Source: Clostridia bacterium (lineage in GTDB: Bacteria > Bacillota > Clostridia > RGIG7378). Taken from it: a stretch of DNA of 64,000 nt. The notes beneath the pieces are model-generated. The model ran no database searches, was not told the origin of the DNA, and saw only the letters and a list, made by a program, of their open reading frames with translations. Numbering within the stretch: the first letter of the stretch is position 1; every line of letters starts with the position of its first letter. Location: positions 380-64,379 of the forward strand of contig JAFYSJ010000006.1 in assembly GCA_017559445.1 (NCBI GenBank), in the 5' to 3' direction. Shown here piece after piece: positions 24,838 to 29,775 of this stretch. The position numbers and the translations under genes were made by a program.

Positions 24838-25133
24838 AAAATAACAAAGTTAATTTTATCACAATTAGAAGATTAATAAAATGAAAAAATATAATAAATT
24901 TAGACAGAAAGTCTTATGAAAAAGTATGTGTTTTGGTAGGAGAAATTAGAAAGTGGATATCAAGATTAGATGATTTAAAACGGTGTATTTATTGACACAT
25001 ATTATACTTTATTATATATTAACTGTGTAATATTACTATATTATATGGATTTATAAGATAAAAATATGGTAATGTTTACTAGGTTGTTGATTGTTTGATC
25101 GCAGGATATTGAATAAAAAGGAGGACATGTATT

Positions 25134-25742
25134 ATGAAAAAGAAATTAATCAGTTTGTTTTTAGTTGTGGTGCTTTTATGTGCTTGCGCATGCCCTACAT
25201 ATGCAGCAGGACCAACACTGGGTGGTGAAACTGCTAGGTTAGCTGTTGGGCAAACGAATATTTATTCTGAAGGTGTTTTTGCGGAAGTAGTTGCAAACGG
25301 TTATTCGCATTACTATGCTCCAATTACGTCAACACAGACGCAGCACATTAAAGGAGTGGAGACATCTATTAGTCTAACAAGATCAGAGACAAAATCATTG
25401 ACTGCATCAGGAAGTTTAGGATGTGATGTTTCATTGGGATTAGGTGTAGGAATTGAGGAGTTAATAAATGTATCGTTAGAGGGCACATTATCTGCGCAGA
25501 TATCAGTGGCGTATACACAATCATACACTAATCAGACTACAATTACGTATACAATTCCAAGTACCTATGAGACATGTTTAGTAAGGATGGTATTTGTATT
25601 TCCACGTAAGACCGTTATAAAGAAAGTAATTGGAGTTAATCATCAAGGAGAAGAAACTCTAATCTGGTCAGAAAAAGTTACATATGCACCTAAGACATCA
25701 GATCAATACGTGTCGTGGCAGACGTATAATTTAGGTGAATAA
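25134..25742 (+). CDS. secreted beta-strand-rich protein of unknown function (AT-rich island)
   Basis: Signal peptide MKKKLISLFLVVVLLCACACPTYA; alternating S/T-hydrophobic stretches. Confidence 0.5.
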   Translation: MKKKLISLFLVVVLLCACACPTYAAGPTLGGETARLAVGQTNIYSEGVFAEVVANGYSHYYAPITSTQTQHIKGVETSISLTRSETKSLTASGSLGCDVSLGLGVGIEELINVSLEGTLSAQISVAYTQSYTNQTTITYTIPSTYETCLVRMVFVFPRKTVIKKVIGVNHQGEETLIWSEKVTYAPKTSDQYVSWQTYNLGE

Positions 25743-25792
25743 TTTTGATAGCGTGCTGAATTTTTAGCGGGCTATGTAGAAGGAGATAAAGC

Positions 25793-26974
25793 ATGAGAAA
25801 AGGAAAGGAAATAATATTCTTTGTAGGATTACTTGTCATGCTTGCTTTTGTAGGTTGCACTACTAGTGGAACACAGGATTTGAGTGGAGAAATGGGTAGT
25901 TCAACACCCATACCAACACAACCCTCTGGAAATGTGTCGACGCCAAATGTTAATAATCCTACACCAACACCAAACACAGAAGAAATTCTTAAGAATATAG
26001 TGATGCCCTCTTCAGAGGAAATATTCTTTGAATTGTTGTGTGACAACATTGATATTACAGTTTATAAGGGTAATGGAGGATGGAATTTTATCTTTTTTAA
26101 GCTGCTATCAACAAGAGATTTAAGTGGAGAGGAAATCTTAGTTTCGACAGATATTCAGACAACTCCAGTTTCTGTTGGAAATATAATAAATTCTGGAGAC
26201 AGTAGAGTGTTTGATTTGGAAACTTTTTATACTTATCAGGGAATTTCTTGGGAAAAAGTGTTAGCGAAACAAAACATAGAAGAGCAAACTCGCATAAAGC
26301 AGGCATATGAGTTAGTAAAGGAATCCCTTCCAACAGTATATATGTATCAAATTCAAATACCGTACAGTGCATTGGGTATAGATGATGTTCAAGGAAATGC
26401 TAAGAAGGTAAACGAGATAACTATATCTATAGGTGGTGTTCAAAAATCATATGAAATAGATAATATTTCTCGAGAGCCTGAAATGGTAGGTGGATTTGGA
26501 AGCGCGTTAATGCAGATTCAAGGATATGCTTGGGGATATAGGGTAAGGCCTACGCTAACGGGAGAGGTTGTATTTCCGGAAGTGTCTTTTATAGCAAAGT
26601 CTGACTTGACGTTAGAATCTATTAAAATTGAAAATAGGGAAGTAGCAGTTGTTCAATGTAATCTTGTATTAAGATTAAAAAATGGCTTTGTGATTACAAC
26701 GGTCTGGGATGGAAAGTCATCATTCGATGTGGATGAAGGAACAGAGATTGCTATGATTCTTACGGTAGAAGATTCCTATTTAGCAAATAAGTTGCAGGGT
26801 ATTACAAGCATGTATATTTCGGTAGAATACGAGTGTAATGGACAGATGTATTTTACAACAGATGCTGCGTTAGTGTTGTTGACTGCAGAGAGTAGCGATA
26901 TATATGCACACATAGTTGATGATATAGATCCATTGCCATATTATATGGAGTATCTAAATTGTCTTAAAGATTAA
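25793..26974 (+). CDS. lipoprotein of unknown function (AT-rich island)
   Basis: Lipobox LAFVGC, low-complexity S/T/P/N linker, then two beta-rich regions. Confidence 0.5.
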   Translation: MRKGKEIIFFVGLLVMLAFVGCTTSGTQDLSGEMGSSTPIPTQPSGNVSTPNVNNPTPTPNTEEILKNIVMPSSEEIFFELLCDNIDITVYKGNGGWNFIFFKLLSTRDLSGEEILVSTDIQTTPVSVGNIINSGDSRVFDLETFYTYQGISWEKVLAKQNIEEQTRIKQAYELVKESLPTVYMYQIQIPYSALGIDDVQGNAKKVNEITISIGGVQKSYEIDNISREPEMVGGFGSALMQIQGYAWGYRVRPTLTGEVVFPEVSFIAKSDLTLESIKIENREVAVVQCNLVLRLKNGFVITTVWDGKSSFDVDEGTEIAMILTVEDSYLANKLQGITSMYISVEYECNGQMYFTTDAALVLLTAESSDIYAHIVDDIDPLPYYMEYLNCLKD

Positions 26975-26992
26975 AGTTTTGTAGTTAGTTGT

Positions 26993-27851: not shown

Positions 27852-28499
27852 ATGTGCAATATTGAACTGAAATTAGAGCATATACAAAAGTCTTATACAA
27901 GACCTGTATTGACTGACGTAAATCTATCAGTTTTTAACGAAAGTTATATTGCTATTCTTGGAAAATCAGGTTCTGGTAAATCAACGTTGCTCAACATCCT
28001 AGGTTTAGTGGAGTCCTTTGATAGTGGCGAATATTGTTTTAATGGCGTAAAAATTAGGCAGGCAAAAGATTATGCTAAATTGCGATTAGAGAATATAGGG
28101 TTTATTTTTCAAGCATATAATCTTATACCAACATTGTCATGCGCTGAAAATATCTTGTTACCAACATTATATTCATCAAAAAAACAAAGAGATTTTGATG
28201 AATTGGTTGAATTGCTAGACATAAAGCCCTTATTAGAGCAAAAAGTAACTACATTATCTGGTGGTGAAAAACAGAGGGTAGCAATTGCACGGTCATTAAT
28301 TCTTGATCCAGGAATTATTTTAGCGGATGAACCAACGGGAAATCTTGACCCATATAATAAGGAAATAGTTTTTGACTTGCTGCAAAAAGAAAATAAGAGA
28401 GGGTGTGCAGTTGTTTTGATTACCCATGATTGGGACTTGGGTAACAAGGCAAAAACAACATTTGTTTTGGAAGGAGGGCGCCTCATTGAAAAGAAATAG
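27852..28499 (+). CDS. ABC transporter ATP-binding protein (MacB/LolD-type)
   Basis: GKSGSGKST Walker A, LSGGEKQRVAIARSL signature, ILADEPTGNLD Walker B. Confidence 0.9.
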   Translation: MCNIELKLEHIQKSYTRPVLTDVNLSVFNESYIAILGKSGSGKSTLLNILGLVESFDSGEYCFNGVKIRQAKDYAKLRLENIGFIFQAYNLIPTLSCAENILLPTLYSSKKQRDFDELVELLDIKPLLEQKVTTLSGGEKQRVAIARSLILDPGIILADEPTGNLDPYNKEIVFDLLQKENKRGCAVVLITHDWDLGNKAKTTFVLEGGRLIEKK

Positions 28500-29721
28500 G
28501 GAGTCTTCTTTTTCCCATGCCGTAAAAATGGTTAGAAGAAATTTCAAGTCATATATGATGTTATCAGTAACCATAATATTGTCTTTTTCCTTGCTACTAG
28601 GGTATTTAATGTTTGTTGATTCGTCCCTTTTTAATGATTATAAAGTTCTGTTAAGCTGCGACCCTAATGTTGTCTTGGCATATTCATATGATCAGAATGG
28701 TTATGCGCATAACTCTTTGTCGGAAAGCATCGACGATATAGATAGTAGTGCATCTCATTATATGTATTACACTTCTAATACAAAACTTATGCAGTATGAC
28801 TATAATATTTCTGCCCAGTTAGTTTTTATACCAATGGGAGATGTTCCTGTATACCAGTATTATCTTTATTCAACAGATAAGGATATTTATCAGGTTGCAA
28901 AAGAAGTAGAATTAATAAAAGGTAAGGATGCTTTTTATTTGTTAGAAAATGAGGCAGTGGTAAATGAAAGCTTTTATAAAACTATTAGCCCCCAAGGAGA
29001 ACTTCCAGTTGAAATAGATGTGCCAGTAACATGGTCGGATGAAAGCGTTACATGGGTTAGGCTAAATATTGTAGGCGTTTGCAAAGATGATAGCAGAAAT
29101 AATATACCTCAGGGTGCTGAGAATACCATGATGGTAACAATTTATCTGTCTCAAGAACAAATTGGGGATAAAAACGCATCTGATTTATTTTCACTAACGC
29201 GATTAACATGGGCATATTCAGAGAAGGCGGAAGAAATAGATGCGTCTGCTAAACAATTAGGAATGATTTCTCATTGTATAAAAGATCAACAGTTAGAAGC
29301 AATGGTGGTAATCAAAGCACAAAAAGCTACAAAGGGAATAGTCGCTATAATATTGATGGTACTGTTAGGTATTAATCTGTATTCGAGCTTTTCAAATGCA
29401 TTAAATGATAGAAAATTCGAAATTGGTGTTAAGAGGGCAATAGGTGCTTCATCATGGGATATTATTAGACAATTCTTATACGAAGGATTGGTGGTGATGA
29501 TCACTAACATTGTGTTATCAATACTAGTGGTCACAAATATAGCAATTGCATATAAAGCATACCAATATATTGTGGAGGATGTGCAATGGGTTATAGATAT
29601 ATCAATATATTCTGTTATTATATTTGGTGTATGCAGTATCTTTTTGACAATTGTTTTCAGTTTGTTGTTTGCGTATAAATCTACACGAATCGAAATAGTT
29701 AAATACTTAAAGGCTGAATGA
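28486..29721 (+). CDS. ABC transporter permease, FtsX/MacB-type (TTG start with AGGAGGG RBS)
   Basis: N-terminal TM, large extracytoplasmic domain, C-terminal three TM with VKRAIGASSWDIIRQF FtsX signature. Confidence 0.8.
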   Translation: MKRNRESSFSHAVKMVRRNFKSYMMLSVTIILSFSLLLGYLMFVDSSLFNDYKVLLSCDPNVVLAYSYDQNGYAHNSLSESIDDIDSSASHYMYYTSNTKLMQYDYNISAQLVFIPMGDVPVYQYYLYSTDKDIYQVAKEVELIKGKDAFYLLENEAVVNESFYKTISPQGELPVEIDVPVTWSDESVTWVRLNIVGVCKDDSRNNIPQGAENTMMVTIYLSQEQIGDKNASDLFSLTRLTWAYSEKAEEIDASAKQLGMISHCIKDQQLEAMVVIKAQKATKGIVAIILMVLLGINLYSSFSNALNDRKFEIGVKRAIGASSWDIIRQFLYEGLVVMITNIVLSILVVTNIAIAYKAYQYIVEDVQWVIDISIYSVIIFGVCSIFLTIVFSLLFAYKSTRIEIVKYLKAE

Positions 29722-29723
29722 AA

Positions 29724-29765
29724 AAAGTGGAACATATCAATTTGTAATATGTTCCACTTTTGTTA
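29724..29765. terminator. bidirectional terminator
   Basis: agtggaacatat...atatgttccact hairpin with flanking A- and T-runs between permease and glnN. Confidence 0.6.
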
Positions 29766-29775
29766 TGCTGTATTT

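What the first reader, a model, noticed from the sequence alone, without database searches (positions are those of the whole stretch)
24850..29770. AT-rich island encoding a secreted protein, a lipoprotein and a MacAB/YknXYZ-like tripartite ABC exporter
GC content drops sharply (roughly low-30s percent versus about 45-47% in the flanks) and codon usage shifts toward A/T-ending codons across 25134-29721. The operon order is secreted beta-rich protein, lipoprotein, membrane-fusion protein, MacB-type ATPase, FtsX permease. It is bounded by the DUF1846 gene and a bidirectional terminator before glnN. This architecture fits horizontally acquired peptide/toxin export or antimicrobial-peptide resistance/immunity. 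The first two proteins have no recognisable family and could be cargo.
Basis: partly seen in the sequence, partly recalled or inferred. Interest (0 to 1): 0.65.

Follow-up and report, generated by a model that had tools for sequence, protein, structure and literature searches.

The report
Strain-variable toxin-like gene island with pump
A 4.9-kb gene island, present in some strains of an uncultured gut Clostridia bacterium and absent from another, encodes a secreted protein shaped like a pore-forming toxin, a matching surface lipoprotein and an ATP-driven pump; it most likely makes a toxin and protects its producer, but this is untested.

Summary
Window 24865-29768 is a 4,904-bp AT-rich insert. 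GC3 is 0.27-0.30 in all five genes, against 0.46+/-0.06 for the other 48 window genes. The operon reads secreted protein, lipoprotein, adaptor, ABC ATPase, FtsX permease.

It is accessory. A metagenome contig with an identical GlnN protein has glnN followed after 117 bp by DUF1846, with no island between them.

Gene 3 matches no sequence family. Its predicted structure (pLDDT 86) is a membrane-fusion adaptor without the alpha-hairpin (BesA, E 9e-11). Genes 4-5 are a MacB-type ABC transporter.

Gene 1 belongs to a tiny family (33 representatives among 1.84 billion proteins). Its model (pLDDT 93) has the architecture of an aerolysin-type beta-pore-forming domain, including an alternating amphipathic segment. 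No single fold or sequence match is significant.

Across 11 distinct loci, gene 1 is always followed by the gene-2 lipoprotein. Genes 2-5 occur without gene 1 at three loci, and genes 1-2 without the pump at one. Regulators alongside related copies include Agr quorum sensing and ECF sigma factors.

Best reading (about 45%): a secreted pore-forming toxin with lipoprotein plus pump self-protection. This is a new variant of known bacteriocin immunity logic (YknXYZ, AS-48EFGH, NisI/NisFEG). Function is untested.

The parts
24865..29768 (.). Accessory island: a 4,904-bp insert that replaces 62 bp of the empty-site allele
   Evidence: blastn of the empty-site contig L107 against the window: 23329-24864 at 99.3% and 29769-32012 at 98.5%, with nothing between. 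GC3 0.27-0.30 vs 0.46+/-0.06. No target-site duplication, integrase or adjacent tRNA.
24992..25020 (+). Candidate sigma-70 promoter of the operon (TTGACA-17-TATATT, 11 of 12 matches)
   Evidence: Consensus scan. It is the best site in the region, but the total number of sites does not exceed shuffles, so it is a candidate only.
25118..25125 (+). Ribosome-binding site AAAGGAGG ahead of gene 1
   Evidence: Read directly from the sequence.
25134..25742 (+). Gene 1: Sec-secreted 202-aa protein. Signal peptide of about 24 aa ends in CACPTYA. The mature protein is 178 aa and 23.6% Ser+Thr. It has an aerolysin-type beta-pore-former-like architecture with a candidate amphipathic membrane-spanning segment at residues 93-126.
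   Evidence: No Pfam or NCBIfam hit. 33 representatives among 1.84 billion proteins. AF2 pLDDT 93.4. 47 of the top 50 Foldseek PDB hits are aerolysin-type folds, all at E >= 0.01. Pfam BB_PF E 0.021 and Cry78Aa E 0.052. Beta-amphipathic moment analysis.
25793..26974 (+). Gene 2: 393-aa lipoprotein. Lipobox AFVG-C22, a Pro/Thr-rich linker of about 45 aa, then a globular part of about 320 aa of unknown fold. Cognate partner of gene 1.
   Evidence: Lipobox Cys is invariant in 8 homologues. No Pfam or PDB match, even with a profile. It lies immediately downstream of every gene-1 relative examined.
26993..27850 (+). Gene 3: 285-aa membrane-fusion (periplasmic adaptor) protein with an N-terminal TM helix and no alpha-hairpin
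   Evidence: AF2 pLDDT 86.2: helix 2-40, then an all-beta ectodomain. Foldseek PDB: BesA E 9.3e-11, then CusB, AcrA, MexA, MacA and Spr0693. 22 homologue clusters at 44-51% identity.
27852..28499 (+). Gene 4: ABC ATPase of the MacB/LolD/FtsE-like group, with intact catalytic motifs
   Evidence: Pfam ABC_tran 109 bits. Best NCBIfam hit is TIGR03608 (Lcn972-type) at 189.9 bits, below its 254.85 cut-off. Walker A, Q-loop, LSGGEKQ and H-loop found by pattern. Walker B ILADEPT read from the sequence.
28486..29721 (+). Gene 5: FtsX/MacB-type permease (411 aa from TTG 28486). Four TM helices with an extracytoplasmic domain of about 240 aa between TM1 and TM2.
   Evidence: Pfam FtsX 49.8 bits against a 25.5 cut-off. 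PDB: MacB E 1.6e-7, also YtrF, Spr0695 and LolF. TM prediction. Start codon and RBS. Homologue N-termini align to this start.
29722..29758 (.). Terminator-like hairpin shared by the operon and the convergent glnN. It is brought in by the island and replaces the native glnN hairpin of the empty allele.
   Evidence: Inverted repeat I1. Sequence. A different hairpin is present in the empty-site allele.

Best explanation
The island is a horizontally acquired, strain-variable five-gene operon. It most likely encodes a secreted pore-forming toxin together with a two-layer self-protection system.

Proposed mechanism:
1. The operon is transcribed from its own promoter. In related loci it sits next to Agr quorum sensing, ECF sigma/anti-sigma or PadR genes.
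2. Gene 1 is exported by Sec and its signal peptide is cut after A-x-A. The 178-aa mature protein has an aerolysin-type beta-sheet architecture.
3. Its amphipathic segment (residues 93-126) would refold into a transmembrane beta-hairpin after oligomerisation on a target membrane.
4. The gene-2 lipoprotein is tethered to the producer's membrane by a long linker. It is the cognate partner that intercepts the toxin at the producer's own surface.
5. Genes 3-5 form a MacB-type (type VII, mechanotransmission) ABC machine with a hairpin-less adaptor. It uses cytoplasmic ATP hydrolysis to push toxin off the outer face of the membrane.

This parallels how YknXYZ, AS-48EFGH and NisI/NisFEG protect their producers.

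Shown here: the accessory status of the island, the gene content, the adaptor and MacB-type identities, the gene-1 architecture and the gene linkage.

Inferred: that gene 1 is toxic, what it targets, and the protective roles of genes 2-5.
For: Accessory and foreign:
- An empty site exists in a strain with an identical GlnN protein.
- GC3 is about 3 SD below the window's genes.
- Homologous cassettes elsewhere have GC 0.45-0.52, matching or exceeding their flanks, so the AT-richness is not a family trait.

Gene 1 looks like a pore former:
- The AF2 model is confident (pLDDT 93.4). It has very long strands (47-71, 148-168, 174-187) and a helix at 107-122 inside the Ser/Thr-rich segment.
- 47 of the top 50 Foldseek PDB hits are aerolysin-type proteins, including lysenin, BinAB, Cry78Aa, CPE, parasporin-2, epsilon-toxin, Dln1 and LSL.
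- Independent weak sequence signals point the same way: Pfam BB_PF E 0.021 and a Cry78Aa pore domain profile hit at E 0.052.
- The two strongest beta-amphipathic windows (95-107 and 111-123) flank an EE turn. Shuffle tests give p about 0.04 and 0.013.
- Mature gene 1 is 23.6% Ser+Thr, against 20.5% reported for the Cry78Aa pore domain. In that group the membrane-spanning region is likewise an alpha-helix plus short strands in the soluble form (PMC9363482).

Gene linkage:
- All 8 distinct gene-1 loci have a gene-2 lipoprotein gene immediately downstream. Four of these loci were found by searching from gene 1, which removes the ascertainment bias.
- Genes 2-5 occur without gene 1 at L011, L013 and L094, like orphan immunity modules. 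L011 is on a mobile element with relaxase and TnpV.
- L103 has genes 1-2 without the pump, so the pump is not needed to secrete gene 1.
- Divergence is steepest for genes 1 and 2 (20-36% identity), against 59-71% for the ATPase.
- There is turnover of gene 2: duplicated in L009 and a remnant in L099.
- A complete Agr set lies next to the cassette in L095-L097.

Precedents: MacB-type pump plus adaptor protecting Gram-positive producers from their own Sec-exported or secreted toxins (PMC5985334). Lipoprotein plus ABC dual immunity (PMC4828448 and PMC4094520).
Against: - Gene 1 has no receptor-binding domain, and the isolated Cry78Aa pore domain is not toxic on its own (PMC9363482).
- From general knowledge, characterised aerolysin-family toxins act on eukaryotic membranes and have no immunity genes.
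Nothing shows that it binds gene 1.
- The amphipathic-segment statistics are only moderate, and the segment length varies within the family.
- The window copy has no adjacent regulator.
- There are no expression or activity data of any kind.
Confidence: 0.45

Rival explanations
1. Dedicated post-Sec release system. Gene 1 is cargo. After Sec export it is extracted from the membrane surface and pushed through the wall zone by the adaptor and MacB-type pump, with the lipoprotein acting as a chaperone or hand-over factor. This would resemble MacB-family export of periplasmic enterotoxin STII or of dispersin in Gram-negatives. Gene 1 could then be a toxin aimed at host cells, or another secreted effector.
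For: Gene 1 is first in the operon and carries a Sec signal. MacB-type pumps act on substrates at the outer face of the membrane, with a substrate range reported up to 10-kDa proteins (PMC5985334). Five-gene cassettes recur.
Against: Three loci carry genes 2-5 with no gene 1. One locus carries genes 1-2 with no pump. So the pump is neither dedicated to gene 1 nor required for it. A monoderm host needs no second-membrane export step.
Confidence: 0.2
2. General antimicrobial-peptide or xenobiotic resistance module. Genes 2-5 form a resistance pump like pneumococcal Spr0693-0695. Gene 1 is a non-toxic surface or adhesion protein with an elongated beta-sheet fold, like botulinum HA70, that merely travels with it.
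For: The 4-gene core is the most widespread unit. It sits on a mobile element behind an ECF sigma/anti-sigma pair, a typical envelope-stress arrangement. HA70/HA3 chains are among the gene-1 fold hits. Gene 1 lacks a receptor-binding domain.
Against: Gene 1 is followed by gene 2 at 8 of 8 loci, even where the pump is absent. The two are the fastest-diverging members of the cassette. That argues for a specific functional pair rather than a passenger. Agr quorum-sensing control is more typical of secreted toxins and bacteriocins than of resistance pumps (general knowledge). The amphipathic alternating segment is not explained.
Confidence: 0.2
3. Envelope-remodelling or lipoprotein-handling machine of the FtsEX or LolCDE type. 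The ABC complex would regulate or move the gene-2 lipoprotein (for example a wall-acting enzyme), and gene 1 would be a wall-associated factor.
For: FtsX-family permeases commonly control extracytoplasmic partners (PMC5985334). LolD and FtsE are among the ATPase's top NCBIfam names. A lipoprotein is a conserved member of the cassette.
Against: All FtsE, FtsX, LolD and LolCE models score far below their cut-offs: FtsX 16-22 bits against 225-255, lolCE 17.7 against 362. Gene 2 has no hydrolase or other known domain. FtsEX and Lol systems have no adaptor protein (general knowledge). The cassette is accessory, not housekeeping.
Confidence: 0.07
4. Not an acquired island. The low GC would reflect amino-acid composition or expression level of membrane and secreted proteins in a native, conserved operon.
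For: Other genes in the window, including both BspA-LRR genes, also have low GC3. No mobility genes or target-site duplications flank the island.
Against: A conspecific strain lacks the whole 4.9 kb and has a clean 62-bp alternative junction with its own terminator. The shift is at synonymous third positions in all five genes. Homologous cassettes in other genomes have GC 0.45-0.52.
Confidence: 0.03

Closest known systems
YknWXYZ of Bacillus (protection from the endogenous SDP toxin)
   Same: A Gram-positive system with adaptor + separate ATPase + FtsX/MacB-type permease in one operon, plus an extra membrane-associated partner. It is thought to act from the outer face of the membrane against the cell's own Sec-exported toxin (PMC5985334).
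   Different: YknX has a prominent alpha-hairpin (PMC4446572); gene 3 has none. The extra partner YknW is an integral membrane protein, not a lipoprotein. SDP is a 42-aa peptide. From general knowledge it is encoded elsewhere, whereas here the candidate toxin is a 178-aa beta-protein encoded in the same operon. There is no significant sequence similarity for the adaptor.
Enterocin AS-48 immunity operon as-48EFGH
   Same: A MacB-type ABC transporter plus cognate adaptor gives the producer protection against its own membrane-active bacteriocin, and it is encoded in the bacteriocin cluster (PMC5985334).
   Different: AS-48 is a 70-aa cyclic peptide made by a dedicated biosynthesis operon. No lipoprotein partner is described in the review text read here. 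The toxin class is different.
NisI + NisFEG (LanI/LanFEG) lantibiotic self-immunity
   Same: Two-layer logic: a surface lipoprotein that intercepts the toxin, plus an ABC transporter that expels it from the membrane. Both are encoded with the toxin (PMC4828448 and PMC4094520).
   Different: From general knowledge, LanFEG transporters belong to a different ABC class and have no adaptor. Gene 2 shows no sequence match to any known family, LanI included. The toxin there is a 3.4-kDa modified peptide.
MacAB-TolC and pneumococcal Spr0693-0694-0695
   Same: The permease's C-terminal TM region matches MacB (E 1.6e-7) and Spr0695 (E 4.3e-5). It has the 4-TM topology with a large extracytoplasmic domain. 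The adaptor fold matches MacA and Spr0693.
   Different: No outer-membrane factor. ATPase and permease are separate genes, as in Spr0694-0695 and unlike E. coli MacB. The adaptor is hairpin-less. No Pfam domain was detected in the extracytoplasmic part of the permease. A lipoprotein and a secreted protein are added.
BesA, the hairpin-less adaptor of Borrelia BesABC
   Same: Best structural match of gene 3 (E 9.3e-11, about 245 aligned columns, TM about 0.5). Both lack the alpha-hairpin (PMC4446572).
   Different: BesA partners an RND pump and a TolC-like channel in a diderm (PMC4446572). Gene 3 partners a MacB-type ABC transporter in a Clostridia MAG that is presumably monoderm. Sequence identity is only 17%.
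Aerolysin-family beta-pore-forming toxins (Cry78Aa pore domain, BinAB, C. perfringens enterotoxin, epsilon-toxin, lysenin, parasporin-2)
   Same: Elongated twisted antiparallel sheets. A Ser/Thr-rich, alternating amphipathic segment between the long strands that is partly helical in the soluble form. Size is close to the isolated Cry78Aa pore domain (PMC9363482).
   Different: No significant sequence or fold score to any member. No receptor-binding domain. It is strictly coupled to a lipoprotein and usually to an ABC pump, which to my knowledge is not described for this toxin family.
Lactococcin 972-type systems (NCBIfam TIGR03608 ATPase)
   Same: Best-scoring NCBIfam name for the ATPase. From general knowledge, these also pair a Sec-secreted bacteriocin with an ABC transporter in one operon.
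   Different: The score of 189.9 is below the family cut-off of 254.85. From general knowledge, Lcn972 is a much smaller protein and its partner is a multi-pass membrane protein, with no adaptor or lipoprotein.

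Membership tests
MacB-type (type VII) ABC transporter | Nucleotide-binding subunit with intact Walker A, Q-loop, signature, Walker B with catalytic Glu, and H-loop | tested here: met
   Pfam ABC_tran 109 bits. GKSGSGKS, FIFQ, LSGGEKQ and ITHD found by pattern. ILADEPT read in the sequence.
MacB-type (type VII) ABC transporter | FtsX-family permease with four TM helices and a large extracytoplasmic domain between TM1 and TM2 | tested here: met
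   Pfam FtsX 49.8 bits against a 25.5 cut-off. Four hydrophobic segments with about 240 aa between the first two. MacB, Spr0695, YtrF and LolF are the only PDB sequence hits.
MacB-type (type VII) ABC transporter | Extracytoplasmic domain with the Porter/Sabre fold | tested here: inconclusive
   No Pfam domain was detected in the extracytoplasmic region at E <= 0.01. No structure prediction was run for gene 5.
Membrane-fusion / periplasmic adaptor protein | Lipoyl, beta-barrel and membrane-proximal beta domains in the adaptor arrangement | tested here: met
   AF2 pLDDT 86.2. 37 PDB matches at E <= 0.001, all adaptor chains (BesA, CusB, TMexC, AcrA, MexA, ZneB, BACEGG_01895, MacA), with Spr0693 just beyond at E 1.3e-3.
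Membrane-fusion / periplasmic adaptor protein | Alpha-helical coiled-coil hairpin (present in most members, including MacA and YknX) | tested here: not met
   After the TM helix, the only helices in the model are 152-158 and 278-282. The best match is the hairpin-less BesA (PMC4446572).
Membrane-fusion / periplasmic adaptor protein | Match to a sequence model of the family (Pfam or NCBIfam HlyD-type models) | tested here: not met
   No family at E <= 0.01. There is only a weak RnfC_N barrel-sandwich hint at E 0.043. The profile against PDB sequences is negative.
MacAB-TolC-type tripartite efflux pump | Outer-membrane factor (TolC-like) partner | tested here: not met
   The island holds five genes and none is an outer-membrane factor. 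None of the related cassettes has one adjacent.
Aerolysin-type beta-pore-forming toxin | Core of long twisted antiparallel beta-strands | tested here: met
   The AF2 model (pLDDT 93.4) has strands 47-71, 148-168 and 174-187. 47 of the top 50 Foldseek PDB hits are aerolysin-type folds.
Aerolysin-type beta-pore-forming toxin | Amphipathic membrane-spanning region with alternating residues, flanked by Ser/Thr-rich tracts | tested here: met
   Windows 95-107 and 111-123 have the highest beta-moments. Shuffle p is about 0.04 for the maximum and 0.013 for the window count. The mature protein is 23.6% Ser+Thr. Criteria are from PMC9363482. Statistical support is only moderate.
Aerolysin-type beta-pore-forming toxin | Statistically significant sequence or structure match to a known member | tested here: not met
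Aerolysin-type beta-pore-forming toxin | Oligomerisation and pore formation in membranes | not testable with these tools
   Needs purified protein plus liposome or bilayer assays.
Lactococcin 972-type bacteriocin ABC system (TIGR03608) | ATPase scores above the curated cut-off | tested here: not met
   189.9 bits against a cut-off of 254.85.
FtsEX / LolCDE | Subunits score above the curated NCBIfam cut-offs | tested here: not met
   FtsE 158.8 against 264.85. LolD 173.2 against 307.75. FtsX models 16-22 against 225-255. lolCE 17.7 against 362.45.
Horizontally acquired genomic island | Presence/absence polymorphism between close relatives, with conserved flanks | tested here: met
   L107 has an identical GlnN protein, flanks 98.5-99.3% identical and 62 bp in place of 4,904 bp.
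Horizontally acquired genomic island | Composition deviating from the host genome | tested here: met
   GC3 0.27-0.30 against 0.46+/-0.06.
Horizontally acquired genomic island | Mobility signatures (integrase, flanking direct repeats, tRNA target) | tested here: not met
   No flanking repeats. No integrase among the five genes. The nearest tRNA is 4.4 kb away.
Known anti-phage defence systems (PADLOC) | Components match models of one defence system | tested here: not met
   Only generic ABC-ATPase similarity for gene 4 and a weak LolE-like TM hit for gene 5 (E 4.1e-5). Genes 1-3 have no hits.

The most novel reading that the evidence does not exclude
Gene 1 founds a family of minimal aerolysin-type pore formers used as protein bacteriocins between gut Clostridia. 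Each is paired with a fast-co-evolving cognate immunity lipoprotein and backed by a MacB-type pump with a hairpin-less adaptor. Orphan immunity cassettes would spread on mobile elements, and production would be under Agr quorum sensing. To my knowledge this would be the first aerolysin-family toxin with a dedicated immunity system and a bacterial target.
Probability: 0.3. Interest if true: 0.8.

Novelty: new variant of a known kind. Interest (0 to 1): 0.55.

Why it matters
If the reading is right, a toxin fold known mainly from attacks on animal cells (aerolysin, epsilon-toxin, C. perfringens enterotoxin, Bt toxins) is also used, in stripped-down form, in competition among gut bacteria. It would come with its own immunity lipoprotein and pump.

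That would add a new class of protein bacteriocin. It would give an experimental handle on how a cell resists a beta-barrel pore former at its own surface. It would also provide a natural example of a MacB-type pump working with a hairpin-less adaptor in a presumably single-membrane bacterium, where the role of adaptors is still an open question (PMC5985334, PMC4446572).

The natural island-plus and island-minus strains make the hypothesis directly testable.

Even if gene 1 is not a toxin, genes 1, 2 and 3 define three uncharacterised protein families with a clear genomic association.

Tried and rejected
- Word-indexed homology searches for genes 1 and 2 found only their own clusters. Relatives had to be reached through gene 3, an exhaustive HMMER search and genomic context.
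- The species-level presence/absence scan with DUF1846 in GTDB genomes was uninformative. The only close relative (L014, 92%) has a contig break inside DUF1846. All others are at most 69% identical with no synteny.
- The JGI metagenome scan with the gene-3 alignment gave no confirmed locus. Gene-1 alignments were too diverse to give search patterns.
- tblastn of genes 1 and 3 against PLSDB plasmids found no match.
- Profile searches of genes 2 and 3 against PDB sequences and Pfam gave nothing significant.
- A profile-profile comparison of gene 2 with gene 1 matched only the signal peptides. The idea that gene 2 is a lipid-anchored decoy copy of gene 1 therefore has no support.
- The viral structure library gave only heterogeneous noise, which rules out an obvious phage-structural origin for gene 1.
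- PADLOC found no defence system.
- Rfam found no regulatory RNA in the island, and no tRNA lies next to it.
- I considered whether gene 1 is a lipoprotein, because of the Cys residues in its signal peptide. I rejected this family-wide: the Cys are missing in many members, whereas the A-x-A site is conserved.
- I considered whether the island spread very recently among strains. This is not supported: its divergence between two strain groups (0.27%) is only slightly below that of the flanks (0.4-0.65%).

Full report

Yes. Sliding-window GC drops from 0.45-0.49 inside DUF1846 (23332-24837, minus strand) to 0.31-0.37 across about 24750-29750. It returns to 0.45-0.51 in the type III glutamine synthetase gene glnN (29776-31866, minus strand).

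Per gene, the five island genes have GC 0.33-0.38 and third-position GC 0.27-0.30. The other 48 long ORFs of the window have GC 0.44+/-0.03 and GC3 0.46+/-0.06. The shift is therefore mostly at synonymous positions.

It is not unique in the window. Both BspA-type LRR genes (17492-19936 and 20340-23069) and two orphan genes (1874-2824 and 40827-41756) have similar GC3. The window mean is 0.427.

A near-consensus promoter (TTGACA-17-TATATT, 24992-25020) and an AAAGGAGG ribosome-binding site precede gene 1. A hairpin at 29722-29758 lies between the permease stop and the convergent glnN stop.

The permease most likely starts at TTG 28486. A GAAGGAGG site lies 8 nt upstream and the gene overlaps the ATPase gene by 14 nt, exactly as in homologous cassettes.

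**2. The island is accessory**

Look-ups by exact protein sequence found the same DUF1846 | island | glnN arrangement in nine metagenome contigs.

A look-up with the exact 696-aa GlnN protein found one contig without the island. In L107 (ENA ERZ28633363), glnN is followed after 117 bp by DUF1846.

blastn maps L107 onto window 23329-24864 (99.3%) and 29769-32012 (98.5%). So window 24865-29768 (4,904 bp) replaces 62 bp of the empty allele. That 62 bp contains a different terminator-like hairpin for glnN.

There is no target-site duplication, integrase or adjacent tRNA. The mechanism of gain is therefore unknown.

Island-bearing strains fall into two groups. They differ by 0.27% in the island and by 0.4-0.65% in the flanks, so the island has been inherited with its flanks for some time. 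The empty-site strain is the most divergent lineage, at 1.5% in glnN; all 33 differences are synonymous, because the protein is identical.

Homologous cassettes in other genomes have GC 0.45-0.52, matching or exceeding their own flanks. The AT-richness is thus a property of this copy and not of the gene family. That points to acquisition from a lower-GC donor.

The species-level test was uninformative. The nearest GTDB species (L014, 92% DUF1846 identity) has a contig break inside DUF1846, and more distant relatives share no synteny.

**3. What the five proteins are**

*Gene 4* is an ABC ATPase with all catalytic motifs. Its best NCBIfam names are the Lcn972-type bacteriocin exporter, LolD, DarD, FtsE and MacB. 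All score below their cut-offs.

*Gene 5* is an FtsX-family permease.
- Pfam FtsX scores 49.8 bits.
- It has four TM segments and an extracytoplasmic domain of about 240 aa.
- Its only PDB sequence relatives are MacB, YtrF, Spr0695 and LolF.

*Gene 3* has no significant match to any Pfam, NCBIfam or PDB sequence, even as a 23-sequence profile.
- Its AlphaFold model (pLDDT 86.2) is an N-terminal TM helix followed by an all-beta ectodomain.
- Foldseek matches adaptor proteins only: BesA at E 9.3e-11, then CusB, AcrA, MexA, MacA and Spr0693.
- The model has no coiled-coil hairpin.
- BesA is the known hairpin-less adaptor, whereas the characterised Gram-positive adaptor YknX does have a prominent hairpin (PMC4446572).

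*Gene 2* is a lipoprotein. The Cys of the lipobox is invariant in eight homologues. A Pro/Thr-rich linker is followed by about 320 residues with no detectable relative of known function or structure.

*Gene 1* has a Sec signal peptide ending in a conserved C-A-C-P-x-x-A / A-x-A site. Its family is very small: 33 representatives (at 50% clustering) among 1.84 billion proteins.
- Its AlphaFold model is very confident (pLDDT 93.4, pTM 0.78). It has unusually long strands (47-71, 148-168, 174-187) and a helix at 107-122.
- No Foldseek hit is individually significant (best E 0.01, TM at most 0.31).
- By my classification, 47 of the top 50 PDB hits are aerolysin-type folds: lysenin, BinAB, Cry78Aa, C. 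perfringens enterotoxin, parasporin-2, HA70, Dln1, epsilon-toxin, LSL, SaroL-1, a lamprey immune protein, Cry23Aa and a Bacteroides putative toxin.
- Two weak sequence signals agree: Pfam BB_PF at E 0.021 and the Cry78Aa pore domain at E 0.052.
- The two strongest beta-amphipathic windows (95-107 LGCDVSLGLGVGI and 111-123 INVSLEGTLSAQI) flank an EE turn. Shuffle p values are about 0.04 and 0.013.
- The mature protein is 23.6% Ser+Thr.

These features match the diagnostic list given for aerolysin-type pore domains. That includes a membrane-spanning region that is helix plus short strands in the soluble form of the Cry78Aa/BinAB/Cry35 group (PMC9363482).

As a control, the viral structure library returns unrelated proteins at similar E-values. 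The argument therefore rests on the coherence of the PDB hits and not on their scores.

**4. Evidence from related loci**

Gene-3 relatives led to cassettes in unrelated contexts. An unbiased second route, starting from gene-1 relatives, led to four more.

| Loci | Cassette content | Neighbouring genes |
|---|---|---|
| window | genes 1-5 | none regulatory |
| L009 | genes 1-5, with gene 2 duplicated (42% identity) | PadR |
| L095/L096 and L097 | genes 1-5 (L095 complete; L096 and L097 end after gene 3) | complete Agr set (AgrB, 57-aa AgrD-like, kinase, LytTR) plus an XRE regulator |
| L100 | genes 1-5, distant subfamily | |
| L102 | genes 1-4, then contig end | DUF4367 anti-sigma-like gene upstream |
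| L099 | gene 1 plus the start of gene 2, then contig end | remnant of another gene-2 C-terminus upstream |
| L103 | genes 1-2 only | followed by unrelated genes |
| L011/L012 | genes 2-5 only | mobile element (relaxase, ParB, TnpV), behind an ECF sigma/anti-sigma pair |
| L013 | genes 2-5 only | LytTR two-component system and two further ABC exporter genes upstream |
| L094 | genes 2-5 only | Ser/Thr kinase and PP2C phosphatase |

Three regularities follow.
- Gene 1 is always immediately followed by gene 2 (8 of 8 distinct loci).
- The lipoprotein-plus-pump core can exist without gene 1 (3 loci).
- Genes 1-2 can exist without the pump (1 locus).

Identity to the window proteins is lowest for genes 1 and 2 (20-36%), intermediate for genes 3 and 5 (30-52%), and highest for the ATPase (59-71%).

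**5. Most likely mechanism**

The pattern has these elements:
- a Sec-secreted protein with a pore-former architecture;
- a cognate, fast-diverging surface lipoprotein;
- a MacB-type pump;
- quorum-sensing or envelope-stress regulators nearby;
- orphan copies of the lipoprotein-pump part on mobile DNA;
- strain-variable presence.

This is what is expected of a toxin with a producer-protection system.

Documented precedents for the logic:
- YknXYZ protects against Sec-exported SDP (PMC5985334).
- AS-48EFGH protects against endogenous AS-48 (PMC5985334).
- The NisI lipoprotein plus the NisFEG ABC transporter protect against nisin (PMC4828448 and PMC4094520).

I therefore propose that gene 1 is a minimal aerolysin-type pore former, gene 2 its cognate immunity lipoprotein, and genes 3-5 a mechanotransmission pump that clears toxin from the outer face of the producer's membrane.

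The folds, the linkage and the accessory status are shown. Toxicity, the target (bacterial or host) and the roles of genes 2-5 are inferred. I put this at about 45%.

**6. Rivals**

- *Dedicated post-Sec release system for gene 1* (about 20%). This is weakened by cassettes that lack gene 1 and by a gene 1-2 pair that lacks the pump.
- *Generic peptide-resistance pump with a non-toxic passenger* (about 20%). This fits the mobile, ECF-linked core. It does not explain the strict gene 1-gene 2 pairing or the amphipathic segment.
- *FtsEX- or Lol-like envelope machine* (about 7%). It fails all curated family cut-offs and does not fit an accessory island.
- *A native operon whose low GC is merely compositional* (about 3%). 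The empty site effectively refutes it.

**7. Comparison with the known, and novelty**

The pump is a member of the MacB-type ABC superfamily by topology and sequence. The adaptor is a member of the membrane-fusion protein family by fold only, and it is a hairpin-less variant.

The cassette is not a MacAB-TolC-type pump because it has no outer-membrane factor. It does not reach the cut-offs of the Lcn972, FtsEX or Lol families.

Gene 1 works like, or at least is built like, an aerolysin-type pore domain. It cannot be filed as a member, because no significant match exists and no activity is known.

Four full-text searches found no description of an aerolysin-type protein coupled to a lipoprotein and a MacB-type pump.

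I rate this as a new variant of a known kind: a toxin/immunity ABC cassette built from three uncharacterised protein families.

**8. Verdict**

- Its interpretation is supported and sharpened.
- Interest is moderate to good (0.55). The finding is not paradigm-breaking, but it is a rare, coherent, uncharacterised system with natural plus and minus strains and clear experiments.
- The main weaknesses are the non-significant fold scores for gene 1, the unknown fold of gene 2, and the absence of any functional data.

Noticed in passing
window 17492-19936 and 20340-23069: Two tandem BspA-type leucine-rich-repeat surface protein genes with low GC3 (0.28-0.30), like the island. Their number varies between strains. 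L001 and L004 have a single 810-aa gene where the window and L002 have two genes (814 and 909 aa). The 92% relative L014 shows only one BspA match in this stretch.
   Followed up: partly
window 17268-17415, 20020-20180 and 34422-34528 (inverted): An intergenic repeat of about 110-150 bp at 93% identity. It lies upstream of each BspA gene and again near tRNA-Arg (34158-34234). It ends in TTATTAG repeats. Function unknown.
   Followed up: partly
window 1874-2824 and 40827-41756: Two further ORFs with island-like GC3 (0.28 and 0.30) and no Pfam match. They may be other acquired orphan genes.
   Followed up: partly
window 24865-25133 (minus strand): The island boundary lies only 27 bp upstream of the DUF1846 start (TTG at 24837). 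In island-bearing strains the DUF1846 promoter must therefore lie inside the island's AT-rich left end. Candidate minus-strand sites are 25029-25001 and 24920-24891. In the empty allele DUF1846 follows glnN on the same strand after 117 bp.
   Followed up: no
L099 6733-6972: A 79-aa ORF just upstream of the gene-1 relative matches the conserved C-terminus of gene-2 lipoproteins (YAMKVDNIDVRPYYVDYQNN). It looks like a remnant of another gene-2 copy and suggests gene turnover at these loci.
   Followed up: partly
L009 5633-6760 and 6862-7995: Two tandem gene-2 paralogues (42% identical, with near-identical signal peptides) lie downstream of a single gene-1 relative. A Fic-domain gene follows the cassette.
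   Followed up: partly
L095 2383-5274 (also L096 and L097): A complete Agr-type quorum-sensing set lies divergently upstream of the cassette: AgrB, a 57-aa AgrD-like peptide, a HATPase_c_5 kinase and a LytTR regulator. An XRE-type regulator gene lies between it and the cassette.
   Followed up: partly
L102 1067-1423 and L100 12927-13340: Small secreted Ser/Thr-rich proteins (118 aa and 137 aa, each with a signal peptide) flank two of the related cassettes. Their relation to the system is unknown.
   Followed up: no
window 32012-32178 and 34529-34672: Intergenic stretches that do not align between the window and the empty-site strain L107. These are further small strain-specific indels near the HD-domain gene and the tRNA-Arg region.
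   Followed up: no
L069 10001-13563: In a distant Clostridia MAG, DUF1846 is immediately followed by a glnN homologue (53% identity) on the same strand. The two genes are thus neighbours, in the opposite order, in at least one other lineage.
   Followed up: no
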